Positions 56,612 to 56,915 of a DNA stretch of 64,000 bases are shown in pieces. The stretch is from assembly GCA_041653015.1 (NCBI GenBank), contig JBAZGG010000005.1, positions 1,958-65,957 on the forward strand, written 5' to 3'. The notes beneath the pieces are model-generated. The model worked only from the letters and a program-made list of their open reading frames with translations. It made no database searches and was not told the origin of the DNA. The position numbers were made by a program, and so were the translations under genes. Each line of letters begins with the position of its first letter. Position 1 is the stretch's first letter. This DNA is from Bacilli bacterium (GTDB lineage Bacteria; Bacillota_I; Bacilli_A; RFN20; CAG-826).

Positions 56612-56718
56612 TGGATAAGAAGATTATTCCCTCACTATGTGAGGGATTTTCTTTTGTTATAAATTATTTATGTCTTGCATTTTTCTTCGATATTATAGAT
56701 AATAAATAAGCACGTATT

Positions 56719-56794
56719 GGACCAGTGGTGTAGCGATTAACATGTCTCCCTGTCACGGAGAAGATCGCGGGTTTAAGTCCCGTCTGGTCCGCCA
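56719..56794 (+). tRNA. tRNA-Asp(GUC) with A19/U56
   Basis: GGACCAG/CTGGTCC; TCTCC-CTGTCAC-GGAGA; G73. Confidence 0.93.
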
Positions 56795-56801
56795 AAAGTG
56801 T

Positions 56802-56877
<76 letters not shown>

Positions 56878-56891
56878 TAATACAAAAAAAT

Positions 56892-56915
56892 AGACGCCGA
56901 TAAGCGTCTTTTTTT
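56892..56915 (+). terminator. Terminator after tRNA-Asp/Phe
   Basis: AGACGC-CGATAA-GCGTCT followed by a T tract. Confidence 0.8.

What the first reader, a model, noticed from the sequence alone, without database searches (positions are those of the whole stretch)
56719..56794. tRNA-Asp with compensated elbow change G19-C56 to A19-U56
Seen: D-loop AGCGATTA (A at 56736 where GG is expected) and T-loop TTTAAGT (T at 56774 where C56 is expected). Known: G19-C56 is near-invariant and is the surface read by RNase P, T-box riboswitches and the ribosomal L1 stalk. The two changes restore a Watson-Crick pair, which argues against sequencing error and for a functional non-canonical tRNA.
Basis: partly seen in the sequence, partly recalled or inferred. 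Interest (0 to 1): 0.55.

Follow-up and report, generated by a model that had tools for sequence, protein, structure and literature searches.

The report
Working tRNA-Asp with swapped elbow pair
This small-genome gut or rumen bacterium's only aspartate tRNA replaces the near-universal G19-C56 corner pair with a matching A19-U56 pair. The change is real and the tRNA almost certainly works, but the same swap recurs in many other bacteria, so it is an unusual but not unique variant.

Summary
Window 56719-56794 (+) is a good tRNA-Asp(GUC) (Rfam 61 bits). It has G18-A19 in the D-loop (A at 56736) and U54-U55-U56 in the T-loop (T at 56774).

- **Only tRNA-Asp found.** A second gene on another contig is identical, with unrelated flanks. 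No canonical tRNA-Asp is in the 92.9%-complete assembly.
- **Derived state.** All 28 aligned tRNA-Asp genes from family and order relatives read G19/C56. A scan of 400 further family genomes found no other non-C56 tRNA-Asp.
- **Not an error.** A separate metagenome assembly of a related organism (flanks 78-85% identical) has A19/U56/A57 in both syntenic copies.
- **Recurs in this genome.** Its only tRNA-Glu(UUC) carries the same swap, which arose separately in another genus of the family.
- **Not unique.** Among the tRNA-Asp genes read from the returned loci, 75 have A19-U56 and 11 have C19-G56, mostly Mycoplasma, Ureaplasma and haemoplasmas, plus CPR bacteria and Gammaproteobacteria.
- **No partner co-variation.** The conserved substrate-binding (S-domain) blocks of RNase P RNA are unchanged. 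TruB and TrmFO are retained, and there is no aspS T-box. The 23S rRNA is unassembled.

Earlier notes of this scan describe 19-56 swaps in phage tRNAs. My verdict is a functional tRNA with a shape-preserving compensated swap: a new member of a recurrent kind, of modest interest.

The parts
56719..56794 (+). tRNA-Asp(GUC) gene with encoded CCA; one of two identical copies and the only kind of tRNA-Asp in the assembly
   Evidence: ARAGORN; Rfam RF00005 61 bits; the second copy at G000 C9:6376-6451 is 100% identical over 76 nt with unrelated flanks
56735..56736 (+). G18-A19 of the D-loop; A19 replaces the near-universal G19
   Evidence: Sequence; all 28 aligned relatives have G at this position
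56772..56778 (+). T-loop TTTAAGT: U54, U55, U56 (pairs with A19), A57, A58, G59, U60
   Evidence: Sequence; closest relatives read TTCGATT, so C56U, G57A and U59G are derived; the related MTLE01 organism reads TTTAATT
56802..56877 (+). tRNA-Phe(GAA), 7 nt downstream and probably co-transcribed; it has its own elbow variant, T-loop ATCGTCC with A54 (56855) and U58 (56859) in place of U54-A58
   Evidence: ARAGORN and Rfam 62.3 bits; same T-loop in G009 and in MTLE01
56628..56646 (+). Terminator-like hairpin with T tail that ends the upstream gene, so the tRNA pair is its own transcription unit
   Evidence: Consensus scan
56892..56909 (+). Terminator-like hairpin with T tail after tRNA-Phe
   Evidence: Consensus scan

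Best explanation
This is the organism's working elongator tRNA-Asp. The outermost elbow pair, normally G19-C56, has been replaced by A19-U56, a Watson-Crick pair of the same geometry. That keeps the D-loop/T-loop lock and the flat stacking face used by RNase P and the ribosome, at the cost of one hydrogen bond.

The swap arose by compensatory substitution, most simply G-C to G.U to A-U, in the common ancestor of this species and a related one. It was spread to or kept in both gene copies, and a U59G change followed in this lineage only. I infer that it is neutral or nearly neutral rather than a new function.

Shown: the sequence state, its derived and fixed status, the lack of a canonical copy in the assembly, and its recurrence elsewhere. 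Inferred: expression, aminoacylation, normal decoding and the order of the substitutions.
For: - **Intact tRNA.** It makes a full-length Rfam match at 61 bits. U8-A14, G15-C48, G18/U55, U54-A58, R57 and G53-C61 are intact, as are the Asp identity elements G73, G34-U35-C36, C38 and G10 (the identity set is from my own knowledge).
- **Only tRNA-Asp found.** The genome has two identical copies in different contexts, Asp-Phe and Asp-Gly. BLAST and ARAGORN find no other tRNA-Asp.
- **Ancestral loci.** Both contexts exist in relatives that carry canonical genes.
- **Independent assembly.** Contigs MTLE01000075.1 and MTLE01000097.1 come from a related organism with 78-85% flank identity. Both of its copies have A19, U56 and A57, and one also has a compensated T-stem change.
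- **Derived state.** All 28 aligned relatives are G19-C56. None of 400 other family genomes has a non-C56 tRNA-Asp.
- **Natural precedent.** Among non-C56 tRNA-Asp genes, 75 of 79 with U56 have A19 and 11 of 16 with G56 have C19. The variant is the only tRNA-Asp hit in complete genomes of Malacoplasma muris, Ca. Mycoplasma haemolamae, M. amphoriforme and [M.] cavipharyngis.
- **Intermediates exist.** Four G19.U56 genes were found, one of them next to a canonical copy in L268.
- **Experimental precedent.** A G19U:C56A double mutant restores aminoacylation of A. aeolicus tRNA-Leu, while the G19C single mutant has no measurable activity (PMC2377443). Single G19 or C56 mutants inactivate yeast SUP4oc (PMC4117946). 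The elbow is read mainly by stacking on the flat face of the pair (PMC4810234).
- **No partner change.** The conserved S-domain blocks of RNase P RNA match the Rfam consensus and the relatives.
Against: - There is no expression, charging or modification data.
- The assembly lacks its rRNA operons. In Bacillota these often carry tRNA clusters, so a third, canonical tRNA-Asp in unassembled DNA is not excluded. Near-complete relatives have only one or two copies.
- Neutral drift does not obviously explain three things: the same swap is also in tRNA-Glu(UUC) of this genome; it arose a second time in tRNA-Glu of another genus; and G57A accompanies it.
- AT mutation pressure does not single out this genome. 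Its rpoC region, at 42.7% GC, is the most GC-rich of 24 family and order genomes compared.
- TruB and TrmFO are retained, so loss of T-loop readers is not the reason the change was tolerated.
Confidence: 0.8

Rival explanations
1. The swap is adaptive. It changes how a factor that reads the T-loop or elbow bases treats tRNA-Asp and tRNA-Glu. That factor could be a tRNA-cleaving toxin or phage or defence nuclease, or a modification enzyme such as TruB or TrmFO. The shape needed for translation is kept.
For: - The same G19-C56 to A19-U56 change is in two different tRNAs of this genome.
- It arose independently in tRNA-Glu(UUC) of genus g17, in G016 and G072 but not in G104, G129 or G150. The RpoC tree needs two changes.
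- tRNA-Phe of the same family shows at least five different elbow designs.
- The genome is not unusually AT-rich and keeps TruB and TrmFO, so simple decay is not an obvious cause.
- Earlier scan notes suggest that phage tRNAs with rewired elbows may evade T-loop-directed enzymes. Those notes are unchecked.
Against: - No candidate reader or nuclease was identified.
- The one nearby lead is a Schlafen-type nuclease gene next to tRNA-Glu(UUC). Its family is reported to cut the anticodon arm, not the elbow (PMC13056530).
- Recurrence is also what compensatory drift predicts for a pair with a tolerated G.U intermediate, and such intermediates exist.
- Most carriers are reduced-genome lineages such as Mollicutes and CPR bacteria, where drift is strong.
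Confidence: 0.13
2. The gene is a spare, non-translational or decaying tRNA-like copy. The real tRNA-Asp is canonical and lies in an unassembled part of the genome, for example an rRNA-tRNA operon.
For: The assembly is 92.9% complete in 45 contigs and has no 23S rRNA. Staphylococcal cell-wall tRNA-Gly genes show that elbow-altered, non-ribosomal tRNAs exist in Bacilli; such genes were seen in locus L268.
Against: - Both syntenic, ancestral tRNA-Asp loci carry the swap, here and in the MTLE01 organism.
- The change is compensated rather than degenerate.
- All other conserved and identity positions are intact.
- Near-complete relatives have only one or two tRNA-Asp genes, at these same loci.
- Complete Mollicutes genomes rely on the same variant alone.
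Confidence: 0.05
3. The changes are a sequencing or assembly error.
For: None beyond the general fallibility of metagenome-assembled genomes.
Against: Four clustered changes, two of them complementary, are identical in two separate contigs. They are reproduced at 19, 56 and 57 in an independent assembly of a different organism.
Confidence: 0.01

Closest known systems
Canonical tRNA-Asp(GUC) of the same family and order (for example loci L002-L005, 95% identical)
   Same: It has the same length, acceptor, D, anticodon and T stems, anticodon loop, variable loop and encoded CCA. It also has the same Asp-Phe and Asp-Gly gene neighbourhoods.
   Different: Only positions 19 (G to A), 56 (C to U), 57 (G to A) and 59 (U to G) differ.
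tRNA-Asp of Mycoplasmoidaceae and allies (Ureaplasma, Malacoplasma muris, Mycoplasma haemofelis, M. wenyonii, Ca. M. haemolamae and others)
   Same: It has the same GGTGTAG-YGA-TTAACA type of D-arm with A19, and a TTTRA T-loop with U56. It is the only tRNA-Asp hit in the complete genomes tested.
   Different: These lineages acquired the swap independently, because the relatives of this genome are canonical. Most keep G57 (TTTGACT), and some of these lineages lack TruB (PMC4014445), whereas this genome keeps it. I found no paper that describes the swap in these organisms.
Engineered compensatory elbow mutants (A. aeolicus tRNA-Leu G19U:C56A, PMC2377443)
   Same: Restoring a Watson-Crick 19-56 pair with other bases restores function, which shows that geometry matters rather than base identity.
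   Different: These are laboratory constructs in another tRNA with a U-A pair, assayed only for aminoacylation.
Non-proteinogenic tRNA-Gly of Staphylococcus (cell-wall synthesis)
   Same: It is a Bacilli tRNA with altered D-loop and T-loop conserved bases (seen in L268).
   Different: Those genes lose the GG and TTC motifs without compensation, and they exist beside canonical isoacceptors. Here the pair is compensated and no canonical copy is found.
Phage tRNAs and tRNA mimics with swapped 19-56 pairs
   Same: They show matched changes at 19 and 56 that keep a Watson-Crick pair.
   Different: Those are accessory phage genes. This one is a chromosomal, vertically inherited, sole housekeeping tRNA.

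Membership tests
Bacterial elongator tRNA (Rfam RF00005) | Cloverleaf with 7-bp acceptor, 4-bp D, 5-bp anticodon and 5-bp T stems, scoring above the gathering cut-off | tested here: met
   61.0 bits against a cut-off of 29, model positions 1-71 of 71
Bacterial elongator tRNA (Rfam RF00005) | Core tertiary set: U8-A14, R15-Y48, G18/U55, U54-A58, R57, G53-C61 | tested here: met
   Read from the sequence: U8, A14, G15, C48, G18, U55, U54, A58, A57, G53, C61
Bacterial elongator tRNA (Rfam RF00005) | G19-C56 tertiary Watson-Crick pair | tested here: not met
   The bases are A19 and U56. The pairing is kept but the base identity is not
tRNA-Asp identity (bacterial AspRS substrate) | Anticodon G34-U35-C36, C38, discriminator G73 and G10 (set recalled from the E. 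coli and T. thermophilus literature) | tested here: met
   All are present in the sequence. Charging itself was not tested
tRNA-Asp identity (bacterial AspRS substrate) | Aminoacylation by the cognate AspRS and use on the ribosome | not testable with these tools
   Needs tRNA sequencing or biochemistry
Natural tRNAs with a Watson-Crick-swapped 19-56 pair | Non-C56 matched by the complementary base at 19, in an otherwise canonical tRNA | tested here: met
   The pair here is A19-U56. The class holds 75 A-U and 11 C-G tRNA-Asp genes from other species
Non-proteinogenic or spare tRNA (Staphylococcus tRNA-Gly type) | Co-exists with a canonical isoacceptor that serves translation | tested here: not met
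   No canonical tRNA-Asp is in the 92.9%-complete assembly. The caveat is the unassembled rRNA regions
Non-proteinogenic or spare tRNA (Staphylococcus tRNA-Gly type) | Uncompensated loss of the GG and TTC motifs | tested here: not met
   G18, U54 and U55 are kept, and 19-56 is compensated

The most novel reading that the evidence does not exclude
Recurrent G19-C56 to A19-U56 swaps in tRNA-Asp and tRNA-Glu(UUC) of small-genome Bacilli, together with the many elbow designs of tRNA-Phe in the same family, may be selected responses to a factor that reads T-loop or elbow bases, such as a tRNA-directed toxin or a phage or defence nuclease. That would make the tRNA elbow an arms-race surface in cellular genomes and not only in phages.
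Probability: 0.12. Interest if true: 0.6.

Novelty: new member of a known kind. Interest (0 to 1): 0.3.

Why it matters
G19-C56 is treated as almost invariant and as the surface read by RNase P, T-box leaders and the ribosome. This case shows that a free-standing bacterial lineage can run all aspartate decoding, and GAA decoding too, on an A19-U56 elbow. No visible change accompanies it in RNase P RNA, and the T-loop modification enzymes are retained.

Together with the more than 85 compensated tRNA-Asp genes found in other species, it gives natural evidence that pair geometry is what is required, not base identity. It also provides a closely matched natural pair for biochemical comparison: this tRNA and its 95%-identical canonical relatives differ only in the elbow. 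On its own it does not reveal a new mechanism.

Tried and rejected
- **Mistyped pattern.** My first tRNA-Glu pattern had the wrong gap length and found nothing. I replaced it with BLAST queries.
- **T-box constraint.** The genome has four T-boxes, before thrS, pheST, ileS and alaS, and none before aspS. T-box docking therefore does not bear on tRNA-Asp here.
- **RNase P co-variation.** The RNA is class B at 278 bits. Only two changes are specific to this genome at columns invariant in 20 relatives, at RNA positions 61 and 69 in and just after the P5.1 hairpin. The conserved S-domain blocks are unchanged. I could not map B. subtilis A130/A230 numbering reliably.
- **L1-stalk co-variation.** This could not be tested, because no 23S rRNA is in the assembly (one search failed, one search found none).
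- **Loss of T-loop readers.** TruB (171 bits) and TrmFO (506 bits) are present.
- **AT mutation pressure.** The rpoC region of this genome is the most GC-rich of the 24 compared.
- **Schlafen nuclease next to tRNA-Glu(UUC).** The published family cuts the anticodon arm (PMC13056530), so I gave it little weight.
- **Transfer from Mollicutes.** Rejected, because the backbone is 72/76 identical to the family consensus.
- **Recent duplication of one mutant copy.** Rejected, because the flanks are unrelated and both contexts are ancestral.
- **Literature.** 'A19-U56' with 'tRNA' gave no paper. The other searches gave only background. Marck and Grosjean's tRNomics paper was not held under the PMC id I tried from memory.

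Full report
**What is there.** ARAGORN finds tRNA-Asp(GUC) at window 56719-56794 (+), followed 7 nt later by tRNA-Phe(GAA) at 56802-56877. Rfam RF00005 matches both over the full model, at 61.0 and 62.3 bits. In the sequence the tRNA-Asp D-loop is AGCGATTA, which reads A14 G15 C16 G18 A19 U20 U20a A21. The T-loop is TTTAAGT, which reads U54 U55 U56 A57 A58 G59 U60. The other conserved positions are standard: U8-A14, G15-C48, G18/U55, U54-A58, purine 57 and G53-C61. So are G10, C38, G73 and the GUC anticodon. Terminator-like hairpins at 56628-56646 and 56892-56909 bracket the Asp-Phe pair. The simple promoter scan flagged no site in the spacer between the upstream terminator and the tRNA gene.

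**The genome.** The window lies in a 1.11-Mb, 45-contig, 39% GC assembly that is 92.9% complete. It has class B RNase P RNA (278 bits) and T-box leaders, so it belongs to the Bacillota. Earlier notes of this scan call it an uncultured small-genome gut or rumen member of the Bacilli, which I did not verify by name. ARAGORN finds 49 tRNA genes covering all 20 amino acids.

**Only tRNA-Asp found.** There are two tRNA-Asp genes, the one in the window and one at C9:6376-6451 followed by tRNA-Gly(UCC). They are identical over all 76 nt, but their flanks are unrelated. BLAST with the gene finds no other copy in the genome. Every tRNA-Asp gene in the assembly therefore carries A19-U56.

**Other non-canonical tRNAs in this genome.**
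- The single tRNA-Glu(UUC), at C6:62819-62895, has the same swap (D-loop GCGA, T-loop TTTGAAT), while tRNA-Glu(CUC) is canonical.
- tRNA-Phe has A54 and U58 in place of U54-A58.
- tRNA-Ile(GAU) has C55.

**Derived and fixed.** tRNA-Asp genes recovered from 28 other genomes of the same family and order all read G18-G19 and C56 when aligned. The closest, at 95% identity, differ from this gene only at positions 19, 56, 57 and 59. A pattern scan of 400 further genomes of the family (48 genera) for tRNA-Asp with any base but C at 56 returned only this genome's two genes as tRNA-like. The other hits resemble the reversed-pattern controls.

On an RpoC tree the genome is sister to G007 with support 99. 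G007 has a canonical tRNA-Asp in the same Asp-Gly arrangement. Both gene neighbourhoods are therefore ancestral, and both copies acquired the same changes, presumably by gene conversion.

A scan of metagenome contigs for the A19 D-arm found two contigs, MTLE01000075.1 and MTLE01000097.1. They come from a different but related organism, with 78-85% identity in the flanks, and carry the same Asp-Phe and Asp-Gly loci. Both of its tRNA-Asp copies have A19 and T-loop TTTAATT (U56, A57), and one also has a compensated T-stem change. This independent assembly rules out a sequencing artefact. It places G19A, C56U and G57A before the split of the two organisms and leaves U59G specific to this one.

**Recurrence within the family.** The A19-U56 form of tRNA-Glu(UUC) is also present in G016 and G072 of genus g17. 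It is absent from G104, G129 and G150 of that genus and from 25 other relatives. In RpoC, g17 is 67% identical to this genome, against 71-73% for several other genera. The tree needs two separate changes for the tRNA-Glu swap (single gene, FastTree). The family thus shows at least three independent G-C to A-U swaps at 19-56.

tRNA-Phe of the same family also varies a great deal in the elbow. The forms seen are A54...U58, a CGCGCWC loop with A18, a UGC loop with A18, and C55.

**Recurrence elsewhere.** One scan of the species-representative genome collection looked for tRNA-Asp with a CGGG T-stem and any base but C at 56. ARAGORN and an alignment give 99 non-C56 tRNA-Asp genes, broken down as follows.

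| Base at 56 | Complementary base at 19 | G19 kept | Ambiguous register |
|---|---|---|---|
| U56 (79 genes) | 75 with A19 | 4 | 0 |
| G56 (16 genes) | 11 with C19 | 5 | 0 |
| A56 (4 genes) | 0 | 2 | 2 (U19 possible) |

Carriers are mostly Mycoplasma, Ureaplasma, Malacoplasma, Mycoplasmoides and haemoplasmas. The rest include a Spiroplasmataceae genome, uncultured Gammaproteobacteria, CPR bacteria and a few Acidobacteriota. In the complete genomes of Malacoplasma muris, Ca. Mycoplasma haemolamae, M. amphoriforme and [M.] cavipharyngis, the variant is the only BLAST match to tRNA-Asp. Neighbouring tRNA-Pro, tRNA-Ala and tRNA-Glu genes in some of these loci carry A19-U56 too. The swap is therefore a recurrent natural variant that cultured organisms live on. 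I found no paper that describes it.

**Partners.**
- **RNase P RNA.** Aligned with 20 relatives, it has only two changes specific to this genome at otherwise invariant columns, in and just after the P5.1 hairpin. The conserved S-domain blocks equal the Rfam consensus.
- **23S rRNA.** None is assembled, so the L1 stalk cannot be examined.
- **T-boxes.** The four T-boxes precede thrS, pheST, ileS and alaS, and none precedes aspS.
- **T-loop modification enzymes.** TruB and TrmFO are present.

Published structures show that the elbow is recognised chiefly by stacking on the flat face of the 19-56 pair (PMC4810234), so no base-specific compensation is expected.

**How it most likely works.** It works as an ordinary tRNA-Asp. 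A19-U56 has the same geometry as G19-C56, so it keeps the loop-loop lock and the stacking platform. Experiments agree that geometry is what counts. Single G19 or C56 mutants inactivate yeast SUP4oc (PMC4117946). In A. aeolicus tRNA-Leu, G19C has no measurable charging, whereas the compensated G19U:C56A double mutant restores it (PMC2377443). The natural G19.U56 genes found are plausible intermediates. I put 0.8 on a functional tRNA with a compensated and probably near-neutral swap.

**What remains open.**
- **Why these tRNAs.** Drift alone does not clearly explain the parallel change in tRNA-Glu, its second origin in g17, or the accompanying G57A. AT pressure does not single out this genome, which has the most GC-rich rpoC region of the 24 compared.
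- **An adaptive reading.** Escape from, or retuning of, a factor that reads T-loop bases gets about 0.13, with no candidate factor. The Schlafen-type nuclease gene next to tRNA-Glu(UUC), noted earlier in this scan, belongs to a family reported to cut the anticodon arm (PMC13056530).
- **A hidden canonical copy.** One in the unassembled rRNA regions gets about 0.05, and error about 0.01.

**Verdict.** This is a new member of a recurrent, little-discussed kind of tRNA variant, which earlier notes of this scan describe in phage tRNAs.

Noticed in passing
window 56802-56877 (+); A54 at 56855, U58 at 56859: The only tRNA-Phe(GAA) has T-loop ATCGTCC, so the U54-A58 reverse-Hoogsteen pair is replaced by A54...U58. 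The same loop is in G009 and in the MTLE01 organism, and G003 has ATCATTC.
   Followed up: partly
loci L002, L004, L010, L012-L014, L067, L087, L089, L091, L094 (family relatives): tRNA-Phe of this family is a hot-spot of elbow redesign. The forms are a CGCGCWC T-loop with A18 in the D-loop, a UGCAAMU T-loop with A18, and C55 forms. Order-level relatives are canonical. pheST is T-box regulated in this genome.
   Followed up: partly
G000 C6:62819-62895 (locus L032); also L036 (G016) and L125 (G072): tRNA-Glu(UUC) carries the same A19-U56 swap (GCGA with TTTGAAT). It apparently arose independently in two species of genus g17. In this genome a Schlafen-type nuclease gene lies next to it, according to an earlier scan note.
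   Followed up: partly
G000 C3:80444-80520 (locus L033); also L059, L132, L005/L076: tRNA-Ile(GAU) has C55 (T-loop TCCGAAT), so it cannot carry pseudouridine 55. C55 also occurs in tRNA-Glu and tRNA-Phe of some relatives, although TruB is present.
   Followed up: no
loci L189, L194, L258 (Mycoplasmoides alvi, M. amphoriforme and one more) and L207, L237, L239, L247, L263, L266, L277, L288 (uncultured Mycoplasmataceae, for the records whose titles were listed): In these genomes tRNA-Asp has C19-G56, a transversion swap of the elbow pair (D-loop GC, T-loop TTGGATT or TTGAACT).
   Followed up: partly
locus L268: A canonical tRNA-Asp and a G19.U56 copy lie in one tRNA cluster. The same cluster holds tRNA-Gly(UCC) genes with TGTAAGT T-loops and no GG, which resemble the staphylococcal cell-wall type.
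   Followed up: no
G000 C3:43767-44095 (-), RNase P RNA positions 61 and 69: There are two substitutions specific to this genome at columns invariant in 20 relatives: U to C in the P5.1 loop and G to A in the junction after it. Their significance is unknown, and they are not in the S-domain.
   Followed up: partly
G009 and G008 (whole genomes): No TrmFO above the family cut-off was found in G009 (90% complete) or G008 (84%), whose tRNA-Phe have A54 or C54. It is present in G000, G007 and G016. This may link loss of U54 methylation to changes at position 54.
   Followed up: no
G000 C5:53-126 and C6:71204-71277: Identical tRNA-Trp genes lie at a contig start and a contig end. This is probably an assembly overlap that joins C6 to C5 rather than two genes.
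   Followed up: no
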